64,000 bases of DNA, taken from the NCBI RefSeq assembly GCF_009914755.1, contig NC_060944.1; one strand, written 5' to 3'. The stretch is from the human T2T-CHM13v2.0 reference genome, Homo sapiens. The notes below the pieces were generated by a model. It worked only from the letters and a program-made list of their open reading frames with translations. It was not told the origin of the DNA and searched no databases. Every line of letters starts with the position of its first letter. Position 1 is the first letter of the stretch. Positions 11,950 through 61,830 of this stretch are shown in pieces. The position numbers were made by a program, and so were the translations under genes.

Positions 11950-12420
11950 GATCTCTTTCATGTCTCTCTAGATACACTTACCAGTCACTTACTCCCACAG
12001 TGCGCTGGGAGCCTGACCGTGGGGTCTGCCTTGACAGACATTTTGCCCTCCAGCTTCCTATTGGGCTTGGCCACTAGGGACACAAAAGAAGGTCAGAGGG
12101 TGGGAGGGAAAGGGTTTGATGTATGCGTCTCCTACTTCCCTCCCCGCCACATTCCCACGGCTGATTGTGTCCCTCTAACTAAGGCTCTAGGTCTCCTCAG
12201 GTGTCCCTCTTCCTGCAGTCACCTCTTGGGCTCTGGTGGCACTTTTTCTTCTTGTCCTTCAGGCCTGGGCTGGTGAATGGTTCCTGCTTTCACTATTCCA
12301 GATGTCCAGCTCTGTACCTTGCTGCTCTCCTTAAAGCCTGCCTCCCTCTAGGTAAGGTGTCCCTGTATTAAATGTTCCTTCCACTACCCAGTGTACATGT
12401 GCATTCCATCATGCTGAGAG
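11950..12420. mobile_element. LTR33-like ERVL solo LTR
   Basis: tgccctccagcttcctattgggcttggccactaggga...ccctgtattaaat. Confidence 0.6.
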
Positions 12421-12837
12421 CCTCACTGATTCTGACAATCACTTCCAACTCTAGTCCTTGCCCCTTCCTCGAGTTCACCCAGTTATAACTATGTCTTCTA
12501 GAATATCACAACCCTAGATGCTGGCACAGTATCATACACATAGAAGGAGTCCAATAAATGTTGACTAAATGCTGTTGTTGAATCTTGGGCTCCCAGGAGA
12601 AGATGGGATAAAAGTTGCTAATTTCAGCCAAACACTCATTTCCTCTGCACATCATAAAGATAAAACAGGATCACAGTTGTTAGAGTGGAAAATTCCCTCA
12701 CTGTTATGGCAGCAGATAGCTAGTATGTATTCCAATGAAAGACTCAGGAATGGGTATAAAAATAATCCACTGTATACCATCAAAAATTGAAAGCACATTC
12801 TTTTCCTTTGAAATAAGATCGGCTTCTAGAAGCTTTC

Positions 12838-13842
12838 ACTCCAACACCCATCCATCTAAAACTCCTCTCCAAGGGCACGAGTAAAATGCAACTTGTTTCA
12901 TAATAAGTCCCAGGAGTTTACTTTAAAGACATGATTACCCAGAAGGCAATGAGAGCTGTCTACAATTTCTTTTGTTTTAAGAATATTTCTATCCTAAAGA
13001 AAGACAGGGCAGCACCAAAGTTTCACTGGAAATTTTGGCTTGTGAATTATACAGGAAATAGAAATTTTGCATATCTGTGATTGATCGTGGATTGGACCTC
13101 ATTCCCCCAATTAGAGTTGCTCAACTATGGAGCATAAGGCTCCATCAAAAGCCCAACTATCTGTCACATCAGCATTAGGCCAAGCTGTAAGCTGACAGCC
13201 TTTATTCTACAGTGGTTTCATTGCTGGGATCAATGACTGTTTCAAAACCAAGCTGGGGCATTGCATACTCGAGCCATTATTATAGCTACTATTAGCAGTG
13301 TCCTTACCAGGTACTTTGCACGTCTTATCTGACCCAGGCCTCCCATCAGCACCATGAGGGGGATGCTTTTAGCATCTCCATCTTACAGATGAAGACACTG
13401 AGGCTTAGCCAGATGAAGGGGCTTCTCCAGCTGAGTGGTGCCGGCAGTACTTGCTTTGCAGCCTAGGTTCCTTATCATGTTTCCATTCACCTGGATGGAG
13501 TTGAGTCAAACTGCCTCTGGCCGCCTCCAGCTTCCTGCTGGGCTTTGCTATTAGGGGCACCAAAGAAGATCAGAGGGTCGGAGAGAAAGGGTTTGCAAAT
13601 TTGCAAATATGCAAAATTTCTATATTTTGTATAAATCACAGGCTGAAATTTACAGTGAAACTTCAGAGCTATCCTGTCTTTCTTTAGGTTAGAAATATTC
13701 TTGAAACAGAAGAAACTGTAGACAGCTCTCATTGCCTCTGGGTAATCATGTCTTTAATGTAAACTCCTGGGGCTTATTATGAAACAAATTGCATTTTATC
13801 TGTGACCTTGGAGACAAATTTTAGATGGATGGGTGTTGGAGT
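12838..13842. repeat. Inverted duplication: arms 12838-13074 and 13607-13842, about 88% identical
   Basis: Hand alignment of the reverse complement: about 28 differences in 237 bp. Confidence 0.95.
13270..13470 (-). mobile_element. MIR inside the inverted-repeat spacer
   Basis: atcttacagatgaagacactgaggctt. Confidence 0.75.
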
Positions 13843-14404
13843 AAAATTGAGTCTGGGCTGCCTGTCTACCTTGGTACCAACTTCTACTCTTGTACTTTTC
13901 TCATTGTGTTGCATTGGCTCATACTCAAAGGTTAAAAAGAAAAATTGGCACAAGCCACATTTGGTCCACAAACTCCTTGCCCTCCAAGGTTCTTAAAGGG
14001 CATGAAATTTTGCTGGATCACGCTTCAGAGTTGCTCATAACATTTCTGATTTTATTGAATTCCCCCCTCCTCCCTTTTTAGGTCCTTAGGTAAAACTCCA
14101 CTAAAACAAACAAACAAACAAACAAAAAAACAATGACCCATTGCCAGCAATCCTCTGGCTGCACCTTTTTCTGTTGTCTTTAGATTCATGGAGTAGACAT
14201 TCAACTAAGCAGAAATCCTCCTCCAACCCTTACTTCTTCCCTCTCACCAAACATTCCCATGCCTGACTCTTCTTTACCTTAGAAATGTCCTCGTTATCCC
14301 CATTAGTATCAGCTGGTTCCATTAGGACACAGATATCCCGACCTGGACATTCTAGAGATTTATTTCCTCACCAGGCACTGGTTTGGTAAAGTTCTCCTTA
14401 TTCC

Positions 14405-25616: not shown

Positions 25617-25909
<293 letters not shown>

Positions 25910-26121
25910 TAAGTTTTGAATATCTTATCCCTATCAATGACTTGTCTTTTCATTCCTCTAACGTTCTTAATTTTGATCAAGTCCAATTTATCTTTTCTCT
26001 CCTTTATAGATTGTGCTTTTGGTGTTACATCTAAGAAATCTTTGCTTTTGATTATTTTAAAAATTGATTTTCTCATCAAGTAAAAGAAAATGTACTTTCA
26101 AGTTCCTTTAAGTATATCCAC

Positions 26122-26135
26122 GTTGCCTAGGCAAC
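26122..26135. promoter_or_regulatory. Perfect palindromic RFX X-box GTTGCCTAGGCAAC
   Basis: Matches GTNRCC(N0-3)RGYAAC; 14-bp palindrome in non-repeat DNA. Confidence 0.6.
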
Positions 26136-26575
26136 CAAGTTATTTATCAATAGGTGATCATTTGTAATGATTTGTTAATAAAGGAATTAGAAAATCTTGC
26201 CTTCCATGATCCTTAATCTACTTGCAAGACCTCATCCCCTTTAGTATAAACTTATCCAAGACCTACGGTCAAGTTGGAAGAGAGGCAGGTGTGATTTTGT
26301 GGGGAAAGCTTCCTGGGCCCCAGCAATAGGAGACTGAATTTTCTTCTTTGTTCTGCTACTAATCAGAAGCTCAACTCTGGGCCAGTTGTACTCTCTTTTT
26401 TGTTTACATTTCCAATTGCAAAAGTAAGGAGTTGTACTAGATTTTTCTGTGCTCCTGTCTAGTCCTAATACTATATAAATGGGACATTGACAGTAAATTG
26501 AACATCTTCAGTAGGACCAGGACTAGAGTCAGGCAAGAGCTGCATCTAGGGTACAGCATTTAAGAAGCTGTGCGC

Positions 26576-26887
<312 letters not shown>

Positions 26888-27316
26888 TCAGGATTGTCCA
26901 AATTTTCATTCTGTATTTCCACAACCCTAACAAGGAGCCACTTGGAAGACACTGGGAATGAGGGCCTCCATGAATTTTATGCCCTCCATAATTCTCTTGC
27001 CATATCCTAGTTCTGGTCCTGACCCTCAATGAGATAAGTCGGCATGACCCATGTGGGGGCTGTGATGAACTGGCACAGGGCGTCTTGCATTTGAGTATGC
27101 ATTCGAATCCCCTGGGAATATTGTTCATTCTCATTCAGAGGTTCTGGTATGGGGCTTGGGATTCTGCCTTTCTAACAAGCTCCCAGATGATGCTTGTGCT
27201 GGTGCATGGGCCACATTTTTCATGTCAAGGAACTAGAATGTAGCAGCTTTGTCCAAAAAAGCAACTCACCTTCATACATTGCCATGTGGGAATTCAGTCC
27301 CCAGAGTGCTCAATGT

Positions 27317-27613
27317 CTTTTTTTGTTTTTTTTTTTGTTTTTGTTTTTGGGACATAGTCTTGCTCTGTCACCCAGGCTTGATAGTGGCTTACTGCAACAT
27401 TTGCGTCCCAGGCTCAAGCAATTCTTGTGCCTCAGCCTCCTGAGTAGCTGGGAATACAGGTACACACCACCACGCCCAGCTAAGTTTTGTATTTTTAGTA
27501 GACATGGGGTTTCACCAAGTTGGCCAGGCTGGTCTTGAACTCCTGACTTCAAGCAATCTGCCCACCTCAACTTCCGAAGTGCTGGCATTACAGGTGTGAG
27601 CCACCATGCCTTG
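27317..27613 (-). mobile_element. Alu (J or old S)
   Basis: Antisense dimer; TSD caatgtctt. Confidence 0.92.
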
Positions 27614-27959
27614 CCCCAATGTCTTGATTAGTCAGAAGAGACACTAGAAATCTGTGGTGTAATATGAAGTCTCTGAAAATGGGCAAAGAAATAGCAAGAT
27701 CTCAGAATCAATTTAACAACAAAGTCAACATCCCTGTCCCCACACCAGAAATGTTAGCCTAAAAAAGGATGACAGAGTTAGACTCAATTTCATTTCTCAG
27801 GGTGTCCTTGCTTGAGTTGACATGCAGTGATGGATCAGTGGCTCCCCTATTCTCTTCCATCCTTTTTGCCCACTGTGTCTCTACTAGTAATTTTCATCTT
27901 TGTTTTTTAGCATATCTCCCCTTCTCTCTTTCCACTCCCCAGCTCCTTACATGCCTCAA

Positions 27960-28830
27960 AGCTTCTCTGGAATAGACAGCTGTCTCCTTTGTCAGCCCAA
28001 CATCCATTTGTTCTCCTTCTGGCATCAGCCTGTTTTGTTTTGAAGATTTATTCTCTCCCCACATTCAGCTCATGGGATTCAAACCAGACTGCACCTTCCT
28101 GTACCCATGGCTCCAGTAGGAACCAGGCCCAAGTTGGCCGATCAGGGTATTCTATCACCCCAGCTCCAGTGATTGGCTGAGGAATGAGCACATTACCCAG
28201 GCAGGATGGATTACCTTTCTTGCCCAGCCTGAGTTATTGGAAAAAGCGAGCCCTTTCCCTTGGAATTGGAAAACTGGCAATAATGATATCTAACACTTAC
28301 TGAGTGTTTACTCTCTACCAGGCACTGCTTTAAGAACATGCTTTTACATGAATTATCTCTTTAATCCTTACAACAATCCTGTTTTGTATGTACTTTTATT
28401 GTCATCATTTCACAGATGGGGAAACTGAGGCACAGAGAGGTTAGAGATATGCCTGAAGCCACACAGCTTGCAAGTGGTGGATCTGGGATTTGAACTTGTC
28501 GATCTGGCTGCAGAGCTGAGCTCTTGGAGACTAGGTTTTACTGCCTAGTAGCATGTAAGCCTGGAACTGCCGGCAGTCATTTTGTAAGTTTGCCGAGTGA
28601 ACCTCAATGAGCATGAAGCAGAGAGGAAAGCAGTACTAAGAGATGCAAAAGAGTCTGTGTTCCAGCAATGGGATCTGAAGTCCTGGATCAAACCTTACCT
28701 GGAGACAAGATTTACCCATCAGACATGCCAGTTATAAGACCCAAATTTACCCTTTTTGGGGGATTGAGTTTGAATGAGTATTTTTGTTTGTTTGTTTTGG
28801 CATCAGAAAGACTCCTGATTAATACACAGT
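27960..28830. mobile_element. MLT1 LTR fragments flanking a MIR (about 28280-28545)
   Basis: cagtgattggctgagg...acccaggc and tcctggatcaaaccttacctgg; MIR core cagatggggaaactgaggcacagagagg. Confidence 0.6.
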
Positions 28831-28922
28831 GTGACGCTGACCAAGATGCTTCCTTTCTCTAGGACTCAATTTTCTTATCTGTAAAGTAAAGGGTTCATCA
28901 ACATTCTTTGGTTGAATCTTAC

Positions 28923-28984
28923 CTGAAACATTTTGTGAGCCTTCACCAATCTCATCTAAGCCTTTGTTTCCATAGAACAAAGCC
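28923..28984 (-). pseudogene. Relic exon candidate (62 bp), ALFYGNKGLDEIGEGSQNVS
   Basis: Minus strand: ctttcccctcctttcttaAAG| acceptor, CAG|GTAAGA donor, open frame. Confidence 0.55.
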
Positions 28985-29781
28985 CTTTAAGAAAGGAGGG
29001 GAAAGTGTCATGGAGTCTTACTGTCCTGAGTGCAAATATGGTCTCTGTATTGTCCTTATCTGTTCATTTTCTGCCTCTCAGTACTAGAATGAAAACTCTG
29101 GAAGAAGAAGGAATTTTGTCTGATTTTCTTACTGCTGTATCCTCAGTATTTTGAACTGTTTCTAACTCAGAGTACAATCTCAAAATTTTTTTTGATTTTC
29201 ATATATCTGTATATATATTTGTTAAATGAGTGAAGAAATCCTTATATGTCTTTATGGATAACAAGCTGGCTTGGGCATGGTTTTCAGTTTTGGGTCCTTC
29301 CTTTTGTGCGGGAGTGGTTATGGATGGTATTTGTTCCTCTCTGCTTCATAATTCTCTCATCCATTTTTGACTTAATGGACAGAAACAATAGATGAATAAA
29401 ATGGAATCATCTCTGAACAAAACACAGGGTTTTAATGCTTCTTAAATCCTGTAACATATTATCTCTTCTAAACTCACAGTAAGCAGTTAAGTTCTTATGA
29501 TGGATGAATTTCAGTTTCAAATGATATAAGAGAGGACTGTGTCTTACTTTCCTTCCTATTTTACTTATATTTCAATATCTTAGTAGAGCTATTACGTGAA
29601 ATTGATCCCCCAGCATTAGGAAACAGGATGTTGCTGACACTGTTATATGCTATTATATAATGTACTATTATTTGTCATTTTTGTCATGACATCCAGCCCA
29701 AGCTTCTCTCTTGCAAATAAACCTCATTTTTGTTTTGGGTGGCAATGTGCTCAGATCCAGGTAATAATAAAGACTATAGTA

Positions 29782-30073
<292 letters not shown>

Positions 30074-30504
30074 ATATGATGATAATAAAATAAAATGACC
30101 ATAGTAGCTATCACTTGAGTATTTTTTCCTATGTTTTAGGCACTCTTCTAAGCCAGAAACATGCATTTTATGTATTTGACATATGAAGGCATGGATTGGG
30201 ATTAGGATCAGCCAGTCATGCTGTCACCAACCCTGAATTCCAGGCAGCTAAGTGTGGCCATGATGTTCCCCTGCCCAGTAAGAGGCTATGCAGCAGGTGG
30301 ACTGGAGAAGAAGTGGGCTTTGCTTCCAGCTTTGCAACCTTGGAGAATTTATTTAGTGTCTCAATAGCTAAGGTTTTGTTTTGTTTTGTTTTGTTTTTTC
30401 CTTTTCTTAAATCTCTGAAATGGGGTTAATAATACTTACCTCACAGAGTTGTTGCAAAGGTTAGATGAGCTAACGCATGTGACACACTTAGAAAAATGCT
30501 TGAC

Positions 30505-30726
30505 CAGTGCTTCTCAACTGAGACAAGTCTGCCTCCCAGGAGACATTTGGCAATGTCTGGAGACACTTGTGGTTGTCACAGCTAGGGTGGGAGTGGAGCA
30601 GGTGCTTCTGGCACCTAGTGAGTGGAGGCCAGGGATGGTGCTAAGCATTCTACAATGTACAGGACAGACCCTACAACCAAGAACAATCTGGTCCCGAGTG
30701 TCAATAATACAAAGTGGGAAATCCTG
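30505..30726 (+). mobile_element. MER20 inserted in a MIR
   Basis: cagtgcttctcaac...gacatttggcaatgtctggagac. Confidence 0.88.
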
Positions 30727-31477
30727 GCCTAGACCTTAATAAACACTCAGAGTATGGGAGCTGCTTGAGGGCTGCCTAGAACATAACCTCCAGAAGAGCA
30801 GAGAGATGTTGCTTTTTTCCCTGCCCTATCCCTGGAGCTTAGATTAGTGCTTGGCACATAGTAGTTTCTCAATAAATATGTGTTAAATGAATGAATGATA
30901 GATACAATGACCCTTGGAAAATTTTTGCTGTCATGACTATTCCATCCTCCTCTGGTTTCATCCTACTTTGGTCTCAGTCATTATAAGTTGTTACAGGAGC
31001 CATTTACCATCATGGTACCCAACATGCTGATGGAAGAGGCAAAGGCTAGAAGGAATCTGGGCCTCTGATGACCTTGTCAGCCACTGCACTGGCCTGGACT
31101 ACCGGATGCCAAGGTTTTCAGCCTATAAAAAAATGGCCACTATTACACAGGTTTCTGTGACATGCAGACAAAAACATTCATAACTAATAACCAGAAAGGA
31201 CAGCATCTTCTCTTGGGTTTATGACATGAATTTACTGTCTCAAACCCACTGAAGAAAACAACCCCATTGGTTAGTTCATTTCCAAAGGCTCTGCTTATCA
31301 TCAGATAAGCTGAAATTAAATTTTTTGTATTTGGCAACTGTGCTCCAATATTTAAATGCCAACACTAAATGTTCTAACAAAAGTGGAAATATTGTGCCAC
31401 TTTTTGGAAGTGCTTGGCAGCTAACAAACTTATCCTGGCATAAACTCTAGGAAGTTGTCTTAATTTTCAAAATTACT

Positions 31478-32272
31478 CATATGAAGAAGACATACATGTG
31501 GCCAACAAGCATATGAAAAAAAGCTCAATATCAGTGATCATTGGAGAAATGCAAGTCAAAACCACAATGACAGTCAGAGTGGCTATGATTAAAAAGTCAA
31601 AAAATATCAGATGCTGGCAAGACTGTGGAGAAAAGGGAATGCTTATGCACTGTTGGTGGGAGTGCAAATTAGTTCAACTACTGTGGAAAGCAGTGTGGCT
31701 ATTCCTTAAAGAGCTAAAAACAGAACTACCATTGGGCTGAGCCATCTCATTACTGGATATATACCCAAAGGAATATAAATCCTCCTACTATAAAGACACA
31801 TGCACACATATGTTCATTATAGTTCTATTCACAATAGCAAAGACATGGAATCAACCTAAATGCCCATCAGTGATAGACTGGATAAAGAAAATGTGGTACA
31901 CACACACCGTGGAATACGATACAGCCATAAAAAGAATGCAATCACATCCTTTGCAGGAACATGGATGGAGCTGGAGGCCATTATCCTTAGCAAACTAATG
32001 CAGAAACAGAAAACCAAATATTGCATATTCTCATTTGTAAGTGGGAGTTAAATGATGAGAATGCACGGACACAAAGAGGGGAACAACTCACACTGGGGCT
32101 TACTTGAGGATGGAGGATGGGAGGAGAGAGAAGAGCAGAAAAAGTAATGATTGGGTACTAGGTTTAGTACCTGGATGACAAAAGAATCTTCACAACAAAC
32201 CACCATGACACAAATTTACCTATATAACAAACCTGCACGTGTACCCATGAACCTAAAATAAAAGTTTTAAAA
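31478..32272 (+). mobile_element. 5'-truncated L1PA/PB (ORF2 C-terminus and 3' UTR)
   Basis: RCWQDCGEKGMLMHCWWECKLVQ is the L1 ORF2p Cys-rich end; TSD aaaattactcat/aaagttacccat. Confidence 0.92.
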
Positions 32273-32599
32273 AGTTACCCATGTATTTAATGCATGTTTG
32301 TTGAAGGCTTAAGATAAGTCCAAGATGGGACAGGGAGTAGGGTATAACAAGAAGAAAACGGAGCTAAGTTCGGTTCTCTGTCCTTGTAAAACTGACAGGC
32401 TGAAAGGAAATGTGGATATGAAATTACCAGTGCAGTGAGTGTCATGAAGAAGCACAAAGGTCTAAACAACACTTACTGGGAGTCTCTAAGCTACTCAAGA
32501 GATCAGGAAGGGACTTTCCTGAGAAGCTGAGATCTGCATTACGATGTCAAGAGGCAGTATGAGACAGTGGCTATTAAGGTTCTGGGGTAAGATTATGAA

Positions 32600-32888
<289 letters not shown>

Positions 32889-33097
32889 TAATGAGCTTTT
32901 GAGTTCCCCTATTACCTATTCCTAGATGGATGATCTTGAATAATTAATTGCCAAAAGGCTTGATACCTTATTTATTAAAATAATACTTCATAGGGTTAGT
33001 GTGAAAATTAAATTGGATAATAGTGTAAACTTGCTGTAAGCCTCAAATATTATAAGCCTTCAAGAAGTGTTAGATTTGTAATTATTAAAAATTCACA

Positions 33098-34705
<1,608 letters not shown>

Positions 34706-35047
34706 CATTAAATAAACTTGATCCTTAGATCCATATGATCTTCAGGCGAAAATCTCTTCGTGGCCATGAAAGTTTTACTTTTGGTGTATTTGTACATTTT
34801 CTCCTATGATACAGGGAGAGACGTAGTTCAATAGGTTTTCCTTTTTGTCTCGACAACTAGGAAAGGCAAAGTTACATTCAATGGTCAGTGTTGCTGTAGC
34901 TCTGATGTATAATAATGTCTTATTTGCTGTTCTTTCTCTCTCTGTCATGATTCTATATATAATTGTCTCATTTGTATTATGCTTAATTTAGTGAACTACC
35001 TCACATTTTAGGCAGTGAGTGGGTTGCAAATAAAAATAATGAATGCA

Positions 35048-41345: not shown

Positions 41346-42130
41346 CCACAATTCATCATTTATCTGAAATTCACATATAAGTGGGCATCTTGTAGTTTTA
41401 TTCGCTGACTTGGGTAACCTGAACCCAGCCTTCAGCACCAAGGCCTAGACTCTCACTGGCCCGTTAGATCAGCAGTTCCACGGCCATTGAGAGCCAAGAC
41501 GAGAAGTTTTATTGGCTGCCTGAGGGAGAAACAGGATTTTCTTCCTCTGGATCTGAGGCTGAGGATCTCATGATTTGGGGTTGGTGTTGCAGCCACGTTG
41601 TGCCGTGGTAGATCAGCATGGAAGGATGGCACACAATGATAATGGTCGATAATGATAATAACAATAGTTACTGAGCACTTTCTATGTCCTGCTCCGAGTA
41701 AAGAATTTTAGCTCATTATTCTGTCTATAATCTTATGCTTGACTCTAAAGGTGAAGGTCAGGGTGAAATTTGCTAGGTTGAACCACAGCAATTTTCTGGC
41801 TCCATTTAGCAGTTTTCTCTCATGACCAGGTGAGATGGCTTAGTGATCACACCCAGGGACTCTGGCTTCTTCGCTTTTGCTCAGTCACAATCCTTAGCAT
41901 GAAGTTCTTGTCTTTAAGGCCACAAGGTAGCTGCTGCTCTTACCATGTCAGAACAAGGGGGAAAAGCTAGGCAGCCTTCTCCGGGAAGCCTGTGTCTTCT
42001 ACTCAGGAAGCCATTCCCAATATATTGGGACATTACCTTTTCATAATTTCTACAATTATTGCCTCACTTTACCAATGAAGCACCTGGAGCACAGAGATAG
42101 CAAGTAACTTGTTCCAAGGTTAACAATTAG

Positions 42131-43195
42131 TGTGTTAGTAGGGTTTTCTGGGGCAACAGAACCAATAGAGTGCAATATATGGAGAGAGAGAGAGAGAATC
42201 TATATATATCATCTATATCCATATCCGTGTGTGTGTGCACGCGCGTGTGTGTGTGTGTTTGTGTGTGTGCGCATATATGGAGAGATAAAGTTCTAGAAAA
42301 ACAGAAGAAATATAATGATAATGTGTAGGGGAGGGAGACAGGAAGAGATGCATTTTAAGGAATTGGGCCATGTAATTGTGGGACTGGCAAGTCCAAACTT
42401 TGCAGGGCAGGCTGACCAGCTGGAGTCCCAGGGAAGAATTTTGATGTTGCCACTGGAGTCTGAGGGGTATCTGAAGGGTCCCTGGGGGCACAGAGTAGGT
42501 AACTTCTTCCAAGGTTATGCAATTAGCATATTAGTAAGGGTTTTCCAGAGAAACAGAACCAATATAATGTTCTATCTATCTATCTATCTATCTATCCATC
42601 TATCTATCTATCTATCCATCCATCCACCTATCTATCTACACACACACATATATAGAGAAAAGAGAATCTATCTATCTGAGAGTATATCTATATCCATATA
42701 TGTGTGTATATACATATATCTCTATATATGTCTATCATCTATCTACCTATATATCTATATATTTATATATAATAGAGAAAGAGAAAGAAAGTTCCAGAGA
42801 AACAGAACCAATATAATGTGTAGTGGAGGGAGAGAGGGAGAGAGATTTATTTTAGGGAATTGGGCCATGCAATTGTGGGGCTGGCAAGTCCAAACTTTGC
42901 AGGGCAGGCTGGCCGGCTGGAGTTCCCAGGGAAGAACTGATGTTGCGACTGGAGTCTGAAGGGCGTCTGGGGGCAGATTTCCCTGTTCCTCAGAGAACCT
43001 CAGTCTTATTTCTCTTAAGGCCTTCAACAGATTGGATGAGGCCCATGTACATTATAGAAGTTCATCTGCTTTACTCAAAGCCCACTGATTCAAATGTTTA
43101 TCTGTTCTAGAAAATGCCTTCATAGTGACATTTAGATTGATTGACCAAATATCTGGATAACTTGGCCCAGTCAAGTCAACACCTAAATGTGCCAT
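42131..43195 (-). mobile_element. MLT2 (ERVL) LTR with internal microsatellites and a tandem duplication, inserted in a MIR
   Basis: ttagtagggtttt...acagaaccaatag; ggctggcaagtccaaa; cccagtcaagtcaacac. Confidence 0.8.
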
Positions 43196-60399: not shown

Positions 60400-61830
60400 T
60401 TGTGCTATTGTATTCTACTGTTTCGAATTGCAAAGCAAATCTATAGTTTCTTTGGAAACTTTGGAGAATAATTTTTTAAACAAAGATCTTTGGTTTATTT
60501 GTAAAGCAAAAATGTTGGAGTCAAAGAACCTGGAGTTAATTGGGGGTTTTCCTTACAGTTTGGCTCAAACCCCTAGTTCAGATTTCACTCAGGCTAGATT
60601 GAATCTGATTTAAAACCTTCACTTCACAATATACCCCTGTTTGATAAATATAACGCAAATATTAGGGGCCCTGGAACTGAGTTTTCTATCATCTGAATCT
60701 CTAATCCACAGTGCAATAAAAGGCTGCTCTGCACTATAGAATGTTATGAATCCCAAAGGAGGTAGTCACTTTATATAGCTTCGTTCATTGTCTTCATAAC
60801 CCGTTAGCCAGTCCACGCTTTCAACTGTGGGGCCTGATGGAGCCAATCTGATGGAGTGGGCCTGTTTCCTGACACTTTGAGGTATTAAAATTCTTCCCAG
60901 AGTTTCAGATATTCTTTTATTCCCAATCATGGTGCATTTGGAACTCTTATCGTGTGCTTTCCCAGTTGGGCTTCCAGTATACGTGTGGTGGTGATGGTGG
61001 GTGACGGTGATTTGAAGGGGGTATCATTCCAACAATTAATTTGTAAAATTTTGTTTTTGAAACTTTTTGGCCGAAAGTCTTCATGGAAAGGCAGCTATTT
61101 GCACTAATGGTATTATTTCCATTTGGAAGCGGATTTAGAAACCAATATTTGGCATGTTTTACAGCACAGCAAGTTTACCGGATTCCTAAACTAGCTGCTC
61201 TCAACAGTTAGTGGTGGGCTCCTGGTCTCGCTGGCTTCAGGAATTAGCTTCTATCAAAAATCACAGAAGATTTACTCAGATACCTCCCTTTTCTTGGACT
61301 CAGTTTACCACCAAGACGACTACATTCACTAGAAGAGAAAAGTTCTATAATACAAAGCCCCAGTGATCTGAAATGCTCTGATTTTTCTGTCCACTAAGAC
61401 TCATTTCTAACTGAGGAAGGCTCTTACAGACCTGAGCTCTCCTTGACAGCCCTCCAGGCCAGTGCCATACACATCGATTTGCACTTGAGCAGTAGTAAGA
61501 TTTCTCTATTGTTGGTAAGTATTGAATCCATCTGGGAGTCACTGGCAGGTCATAGAGAATGAAGAATGAAGATAAGTCTTCAGTGGCACTCAGCCTATGC
61601 ATGATTGTGGTGGTTACACGTTAGCTTTTATCTCCCTGTCACCCCTTTGCAGGGTTGGGAGCCTATGCATGACTTGTGGTGGTTATGTGTTAGCTTTTAT
61701 CTCCCTATCACTCCTTCGCAGAGTTGGGGTGGAAGGAGTTGACCTCTGTTTCCTCATACCAGGTATTCTGGTGAGGATTTTAATCAAGATCTTCCATTTT
61801 ATGAACTGCGACTTCAAATGGGCCTCTCTT
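60400..61830 (-). pseudogene. Repeat-free 1.4-kb block, candidate large decayed exon
   Basis: Long minus-strand frames with sparse stops (PLQITVTHHHHHTYTG...SYIK*LPPLGFITFY...; ORF 61345..61602). Confidence 0.35.
61592..61728 (+). repeat. 68/69-bp tandem duplication (about 88% identical)
   Basis: agcctatgcatga...gcagRgttggg twice. Confidence 0.92.

What the first reader, a model, noticed from the sequence alone, without database searches (positions are those of the whole stretch)
12838..13842. 237-bp inverted duplication that appears to have flipped the end of a relic exon
Seen: 12838-13074 is the reverse complement of 13607-13842 (about 88% identical) around a 532-bp spacer, and I do not recognise the arms as a transposon. 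The right arm reads FHCKFQPVIYTKYRNFAYLQ on the minus strand and then runs into unrelated sequence. The left arm reads FHWKFWLVNYTGNRNFAYL* on the PLUS strand and continues in frame (LIVDWTSFPQLELLNYGA*GSIKSPT...) to a |GTAAGC donor at 13187. Inference: an old inversion with breakpoint duplication. The arms could form a long RNA hairpin (ADAR substrate) or mediate recurrent micro-inversion of the spacer.
Basis: partly seen in the sequence, partly recalled or inferred. Interest (0 to 1): 0.7.

Follow-up and report, generated by a model that had tools for sequence, protein, structure and literature searches.

The report
Old two-template DNA repair scar
A 323-base patch of human non-coding DNA consists of copies of two nearby stretches, one forward and one reversed; it is likely an ordinary, roughly 35-million-year-old scar of DNA repair by copying, and likely neither an inversion nor a lost exon.

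Summary
The inverted repeat is real: 12834-13077 versus 13604-13846, 216 of 242 columns identical, 526-bp spacer, two places found genome-wide. The right arm is joined, through an 8-nt palindromic linker, to a 72-bp direct copy (13524-13595) of 12047-12118, 1477 bp upstream. That donor sits inside an intact ~470-bp older repeat, so the right-hand piece is the copy. Both copies are equally diverged, dating to about 36 My (24-51). Short junction similarities, found post hoc, point to departure from and return to the same site, which would leave the spacer unflipped. Best reading (0.75): one germline template-switching insertion from two local templates (MMBIR/TMEJ-like), a class already described. 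The relic exon has no support: no paralogue, Pfam or PDB match, no codon bias, commonplace donor. The arms have no target-site duplication and no further copy turned up, so they are unlikely transposon ends. The predicted RNA hairpin is strong (-336 kcal/mol) but strand-neutral and no stronger than neighbouring inverted Alu pairs; editing is untested. No outgroup genome was available, so spacer orientation is inferred. New member of a known kind; interest 0.25.

The parts
11962..12439 (+). Older dispersed repeat of about 470 bp that contains donor A. It looks like a solo ERVL-type LTR (LTR33-like; name recalled, not from a call).
   Evidence: Colinear with two copies elsewhere across both edges of A: L037 277/424 over 11973-12439, L042 249/393 over 11962-12404; scores 413 and 437 against shuffled maxima of 187 and 130
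12047..12118 (+). Template A (donor of the direct copy); CTGCCT lies upstream at 12026-12031
12834..13077 (+). Template B, the left arm, inferred to be the native copy
   Evidence: no junction similarity at its edges (scores 10-12)
13078..13523 (.). Spacer DNA, inferred not to be inverted; holds an old SINE-like fragment at about 13287-13429 (MIR-like; name recalled)
   Evidence: Aligns to 5 of 5 tested loci (L011-L013, L029, L031) and crosses no junction
13492..13516 (+). Inferred departure and return site. 13492-13510 resembles the last 21 nt of the inverted copy; TTGAGTC...CTGCCT (13501-13516) recurs at 13847-13863.
   Evidence: 89 of 19954 random pairs score as high; anchored 7-mer 435 of 50000, but the unanchored flank match is not significant, 2718 of 20000
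13524..13595 (+). A', direct copy of 12047-12118; its left edge may lie up to about 10 bp further left
   Evidence: 62 of 72 identical; E 2.3e-14 genome-wide
13596..13603 (.). 8-nt linker CAAATTTG, a perfect palindrome inside a 16-nt palindrome (13592-13607)
13604..13846 (-). B', inverted copy of 12834-13077 (right arm)
   Evidence: 216 of 242 identical
13847..13863 (+). Right flank; a degraded repeat of 13501-13516 (13 of 17), a possible short target duplication

Best explanation
13524-13846 is a 323-bp patch made of a forward copy of 12047-12118, an 8-base linker and a reversed copy of 12834-13077, likely written in one germline repair event about 35 million years ago by a polymerase switching templates, with the spacer likely never inverted. 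Inferred steps: (1) A 3' end near 13516, from a broken or stalled strand, annealed about 1.5 kb upstream at a shared CTGCCT and copied about 70-90 nt forward (A'). (2) It detached, made 8 nt by fold-back or abortive priming, then primed on the opposite strand at 13077 and copied 243 nt (B'). (3) Its new end, which resembles 13492-13510, re-annealed just behind the departure point and resumed, repeating about 16 bp. The inverted repeat is a by-product and is probably neutral. If the predicted lncRNA is transcribed through this intron, the arms would pair into a ~240-bp dsRNA.
For: Shown: two local copies abut within 8 bp; about 0.005 by chance in a placement simulation. Direction of copying for A is shown: A is embedded in an older repeat on both sides, while A' matches that family only over 13515-13589, and A-A' (62/72, score 497) is far closer than either is to other copies (63-72% over partial matches, scores 85-182). 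Divergences agree: 10/72 vs 26/242, Fisher p 0.53. Junction signs lie all on the right-hand patch: end of B' vs site of departure 89/19954, TTGAGTC restart 435/50000, CTGCCT common to target, donor-upstream and right flank 56/30000. The left arm's edges are blank. Three new junctions suffice. The class is described in human germline variants, including reverse-then-forward multi-template events (PMC8421209, section 10 part 1 of 2 and passages). The template distances (at most 1.5 kb) fit the ~2-kb resection range in PMC7615360 (section 10).
Against: No outgroup or empty allele was seen. The junction tests were chosen after looking, overlap one another and are individually modest. Two were not significant: the flank duplication alone (2718/20000) and the two-way CTGCCT microhomology (3859/30000). 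Using CTGCCT requires a ~9-bp loss in A'. No exact microhomology survives at the three junctions as drawn. No old repeat spans a junction of B, so B being native is inferred. Mismatches are uneven along the arms (13 in 50 bp; p 0.012 for a 50-bp scan but 0.22 and 0.074 for 30 and 70 bp), so later gene conversion or two events are possible. Which enzyme or pathway acted cannot be read from the sequence.
Confidence: 0.75

Rival explanations
1. Two or more separate old local duplications (A' first, B' later, or the reverse) landed side by side, with the spacer not inverted.
For: The window holds other local duplications of similar age. Divergence is higher over A' plus the inner 69 bp of B' (24/141) than over the rest (12/173; Fisher p 0.007, boundary chosen post hoc).
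Against: Abutment within 8 bp has about 0.005 chance. A/A' and B/B' divergences do not differ (p 0.53). The divergence step falls inside B', not at the linker.
Confidence: 0.08
2. One reading: an inversion of the spacer by staggered breaks duplicated B at both ends.
For: Inverted duplicates flanking a segment are the expected product of such an inversion (own knowledge). The spacer's ancestral orientation could not be observed.
Against: It needs A' to be already inserted exactly at the future breakpoint, giving four new junctions. The sequences that should have been neighbours (reverse of the spacer start, and 13847 onward) share nothing (score 10). The similarity of 13492-13516 to the end of B' and to the right flank is left unexplained.
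Confidence: 0.1
3. The arms are terminal inverted repeats of a rare, non-autonomous DNA transposon that captured the spacer.
For: Long inverted arms around unrelated DNA. The genome DNA search is insensitive to old repeats: it missed the 63-65% relatives of 11962-12439.
Against: No target-site duplication at 15 boundary positions for 3, 4, 8 or 9 bp, and one chance 2-bp match. A 24-mer from the outer end with up to 3 mismatches gave 6 outside hits (control 1), and 0 of 6 extend beyond 34 columns. A family of this age would match at about 0.26-0.68 per copy. The adjacent A' copy is unexplained.
Confidence: 0.03
4. The hairpin is functional and kept by selection, as an edited or regulatory dsRNA in the intron of LOC105372666. 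This is compatible with any origin.
For: Both arms lie in one + strand intron of the predicted lncRNA (hub table). MFE is -502.6 kcal/mol for 1021 nt. Length, energy and loop (about 240 bp, -336, 526 nt) resemble or exceed the medians of edited non-repetitive dsRNAs (144 bp, -185, 509 nt; PMC11838218 passages).
Against: Mismatches give 9 G-U and 9 A-C pairs; the duplex energy is -336.1 on + and -337.2 on -, so there is no strand preference. Arm divergence (non-CpG 0.099) lies within the Alu-pair range (5th-95th percentile 0.075-0.21, median 0.13). Four nearby inverted Alu pairs give -319 to -400. No Rfam match reaches a gathering score. The lncRNA is only predicted.
Confidence: 0.05

Closest known systems
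Complex germline MMB-TI (MMBIR-like multi-template insertions; PMC8421209, passages and section 10 part 1 of 2 read)
   Same: An insertion built from more than one nearby template in mixed orientation, returning to the original template, with microhomology or microhomeology at the junctions. That paper found 33 of 103 and 26 of 99 such germline calls in two people.
   Different: This one is old (about 11-13% diverged) and in the reference; its templates lie 0.45-1.5 kb away against the 100-bp search distance of that tool; the segments are longer; no empty allele was seen.
Polymerase-theta / TMEJ templated insertions at meiotic breaks (PMC7615360, passages and section 10 read)
   Same: Template switching within about 2 kb of a break, an excess of insertions, junction microhomology. 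The palindromic linker fits fold-back priming (own knowledge).
   Different: A 243-nt tract is long for classical TMEJ (PMC8421209 passage says the TMEJ literature concerns shorter, less complex insertions). The break origin and enzyme cannot be tested here.
Local n-jumps in cancer genomes (PMC7025897, passages read)
   Same: A single copy-and-paste event from local templates with mixed inverted and non-inverted junctions.
   Different: Those are somatic and kilobases to megabases long; this is 323 bp and germline.
Inversion with breakpoint duplication, or NAHR inversion between inverted repeats (PMC4576756, passages read)
   Same: Inverted repeats flank a segment.
   Different: There is no sign that the segment flipped; the arms are short and 89% identical with a longest perfect run of 24 bp.

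Membership tests
Complex templated insertion (MMB-TI / TMEJ-like) | Inserted sequence copied from two or more nearby templates | tested here: met
   A' from 12047-12118 and B' from 12834-13077
Complex templated insertion (MMB-TI / TMEJ-like) | Templates remain intact at their own sites (copy, not cut) | tested here: met
   A is colinear with its repeat family across both edges. B is present, with blank edges; this is weaker, as no repeat spans its edges.
Complex templated insertion (MMB-TI / TMEJ-like) | Segments of one age (single event) | tested here: met
   10/72 vs 26/242, p 0.53; low power, and divergence is uneven inside B'
Complex templated insertion (MMB-TI / TMEJ-like) | Microhomology or microhomeology at the junctions | tested here: inconclusive
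   Three post hoc tests at 0.002-0.009, two not significant; the junctions have decayed
Complex templated insertion (MMB-TI / TMEJ-like) | An ancestral allele without the insertion exists | not testable with these tools
   No other mammalian genome is held (no relatives)
Inversion with breakpoint duplication | Spacer reversed relative to the ancestor | not testable with these tools
   No outgroup; the indirect junction evidence is against it
Inversion with breakpoint duplication | Only the breakpoint segment is duplicated | tested here: not met
   A second copy from 1.5 kb away sits at the inner junction
TIR DNA transposon / MITE | Target-site duplication outside the arms | tested here: not met
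TIR DNA transposon / MITE | Dispersed copies elsewhere | tested here: not met
   2 places; 0 of 6 motif hits extend; copies over about 30% diverged would be missed
TIR DNA transposon / MITE | Match to a Dfam/Repbase family | not testable with these tools
   No such library on hand
Relic protein-coding exon | Homology to a gene or protein family | tested here: not met
   Own-genome six-frame search: self, the other arm and 2 hits at E above 4; Pfam, 9 translations, none at cut-off; PDB sequences 0
Relic protein-coding exon | Codon-position bias, or an unusual frame or splice site | tested here: not met
   5/8/5; 4 synonymous vs 10 non-synonymous; 323 stop-free stretches of 57 codons or more; GTAAG 49 times on +
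ADAR-edited intronic dsRNA | Long, well-paired duplex in one transcript | tested here: inconclusive
   The duplex is predicted; the transcript is a predicted model only
ADAR-edited intronic dsRNA | A-to-I sites on both arms | not testable with these tools
   No RNA data; the supplementary tables of PMC11838218 were not seen and may list this locus

The most novel reading that the evidence does not exclude
The patch is a readable fossil of one repair event whose copy order and error rate are still visible: 17% divergence over the first 141 copied bases against 7% over the last 173, as early error-prone synthesis would leave. Such fossils would be a main source of the sparse non-repetitive long dsRNAs of primate introns, and this one would be an A-to-I-edited hairpin in LOC105372666.
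Probability: 0.1. Interest if true: 0.55.

Novelty: new member of a known kind. Interest (0 to 1): 0.25.

Why it matters
It matters modestly. It shows that a unique-sequence inverted repeat need not mark an inversion: a single repair event can create a ~240-bp hairpin-forming pair. It is a clean, datable germline example of a multi-template insertion, a class mostly studied in tumours and present-day polymorphisms, and it is testable at once in primate alignments. There is no evidence of function.

Tried and rejected
Relic exon: rejected. The 88-codon stop-free minus-strand frame 13490-13753 that crosses both junctions is at chance level (79 such stretches in the window; best Pfam hit Triabin at E 0.11, below cut-off). 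Transposon ends: rejected. A recalled likeness of the outer end of B to L1 ORF2 was checked through the six motif hits and six-frame Pfam; none extends. Old repeats spanning a junction of B, which would fix the spacer's orientation: none found. A plain target-site duplication flanking the patch: not significant alone. Left arm as the inserted copy: no junction sign. Selection for an RNA hairpin: no strand bias. Rfam: 1 hit at E 0.41, below gathering score. A 25-mer with 3 mismatches found no relatives of the repeat around A; a degenerate motif found 7 outside loci, 4 of which align and 3 of which (L036, L039, L040) do not. A megabase-scale background rate was not obtained; the background rests on the window plus 36 held loci, 173,469 bases. 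Literature on the locus: one search for LOC105372666 or LINC01524 gave 27 papers, 15 listed, titles and abstract starts only; none of the 15 concerns this structure.

Full report
Observation. The inverted repeat is there. Local alignment gives 12834-13077 against the reverse complement of 13604-13846, with 216 of 242 columns identical, 18 transitions and 8 transversions; the spacer is 526 bp. A search of the whole assembly with the left arm returns these 2 places only, as do searches with the arms plus their flanks.

What was missed. Self-comparison shows a second copy: 13524-13595 (A') repeats 12047-12118 (A) in direct orientation, 1477 bp away, with 62 of 72 identical. It ends 8 bases from the inner end of the right arm (B'). 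The linker CAAATTTG is a palindrome inside a 16-nt palindrome. So 13524-13846 is a 323-bp patch made wholly of local copies. In a simulation that places a 72-bp pair of that spacing at random, an end falls this close to an arm end in 0.005 of trials.

Direction of copying. A degenerate motif search gave 7 outside loci (control 3). 4 of 7 align to the window around A above shuffled scores, and 2 of 7 (L037, L042) run across both edges of A at 63-65% over 11962-12439. A' with its flanks matches L037 only over 13515-13589, and A and A' are much closer to each other (score 497) than to those copies (85-182). A is therefore in its native context and A' is the copy. The repeat looks like a solo ERVL-type LTR and the spacer repeat (about 13287-13429, 5 of 5 loci) like a MIR; both names are recalled and come from no call. 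For B no spanning repeat was found, so its native status is inferred.

One event and its age. Divergences of 10/72 and 26/242 do not differ (p 0.53). Pooled non-CpG K2P is 0.109 (0.072-0.152), or about 36 My (24-51) at 1.5e-9 per site per year (rate from passages of PMC554112 and PMC5402677). Internal calibration: 1081 pairs among 47 near-full Alu-like copies have a median non-CpG divergence of 0.13 (quartiles 0.105-0.17), against 0.099 for B/B' and 0.144 for A/A'.

Junctions. The last 21 nt of B' resemble 13492-13510, just before the patch (89 of 19954 random pairs score as high; the donor's own end scores the same). The right flank restarts with TTGAGTC, found at 13501 (435 of 50000). CTGCCT occurs at 13511, 15 bases upstream of donor A (12026) and at 13858 (three-way 56 of 30000). 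Against this, the flank repeat taken alone (13 of 17) is reached by 2718 of 20000 random pairs, the two-way CTGCCT match by 3859 of 30000, and these tests were chosen after looking and overlap. The same tests at the left arm's edges, and between the neighbours predicted by an inversion, score 10-12, which is background.

Mechanism. Shown: the composition of the patch, the direction for A, and compatible ages. Inferred: a 3' end near 13516 switched to A, copied forward, added 8 nt by fold-back or abortive priming, switched to the opposite strand at 13077, copied 243 nt and re-annealed just behind its departure point. This needs three new junctions and leaves the spacer in place. Confidence 0.75; rivals are inversion 0.10, separate events 0.08 and transposon 0.03.

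Exon claim. The 93-residue reading, with X at its two stops, finds itself, the other arm and 2 hits at E above 4 in the genome. Pfam gives nothing at cut-off for 9 translations, and PDB sequences give 0. Arm differences fall 5/8/5 across codon positions, with 4 synonymous and 10 non-synonymous codons. Stop-free runs of 57 or more codons occur 323 times in the window's six frames, and GTAAG 49 times on +. There is no evidence for an exon.

Transposon claim. There is no target-site duplication at 15 boundary choices. An outer-end 24-mer with up to 3 mismatches gives 6 outside hits (control 1), and 0 of 6 extend beyond 34 columns. Limit: the DNA search missed 63-65% relatives, so B could still be an unrecognised very old repeat; that would not change the model.

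Hairpin and recurrent inversion. Both arms lie in one intron of the predicted lncRNA (hub table). The region folds at -502.6 kcal/mol. The arm duplex is -336.1 on + and -337.2 on -, with 9 G-U and 9 A-C mismatches, so there is no strand preference; four nearby inverted Alu-like pairs give -319 to -400. Non-repetitive dsRNAs are sparse, and 4,597 of about half a million predicted are edited (PMC11838218 passages; supplements not seen). Editing here is plausible but untested. The longest perfect run is 24 bp, too short for efficient homologous recombination (own knowledge).

Unexplained. Mismatches cluster at 13009-13057 (13 in 50 bp; p 0.012, but 0.22 and 0.074 at other scan widths). Divergence is 24/141 early against 12/173 late along the inferred copy order (p 0.007, post hoc). 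Error-prone early synthesis, conversion of the outer part, or chance could each explain it.

Comparison. It works like, and passes the testable features of, complex germline templated insertions (PMC8421209: passages and section 10 part 1 of 2), TMEJ-type insertions within about 2 kb of meiotic breaks (PMC7615360: passages and section 10) and local n-jumps (PMC7025897: passages). Passages of PMC4576756 and 10.1101/2024.12.19.629504 were read for context. The empty allele could not be tested. Local duplications are not rare here: among 10 private pairs in 173,469 bases are three other local duplications in this window, though this is the only long inverted one. One locus search (15 of 27 papers listed, titles and abstract starts) showed no description of this structure.

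Verdict. Real feature, revised interpretation, new member of a known kind, no evidence of function. Interest 0.25.

Noticed in passing
window 33434-33644 and 34504-34713: A second local duplication: 210 bp, direct, 191 of 210 identical, 1070 bp apart with sharp edges; only these 2 places genome-wide. It may be another templated insertion of similar age; the first copy looks like part of an old L1 end (recalled).
   Followed up: partly
window 42086-42969: A mosaic of local direct copies: 42280-42473 / 42781-42969 (84%), 42086-42167 / 42485-42564 (81%), and a perfect 28-mer 42543-42570 / 42792-42819, beside TG/TA repeats.
   Followed up: partly
window 61592-61728: Head-to-tail duplication of 68 bp, 61 of 68 identical.
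   Followed up: partly
window 12263-12351: The annotated exon of predicted lncRNA XR_007089758.1 lies wholly inside the LTR-like repeat 11962-12439, so it would be a repeat-derived exon.
   Followed up: no
window 13490-13753 (-): An 88-codon stop-free frame (81 codons from ATG) runs through B', the linker and A', a chimeric frame created by the insertion; its length is at chance level and it has no homologue.
   Followed up: yes
window 25643-33388: Four closely spaced inverted Alu-like pairs with predicted duplexes of -319 to -400 kcal/mol.
   Followed up: partly
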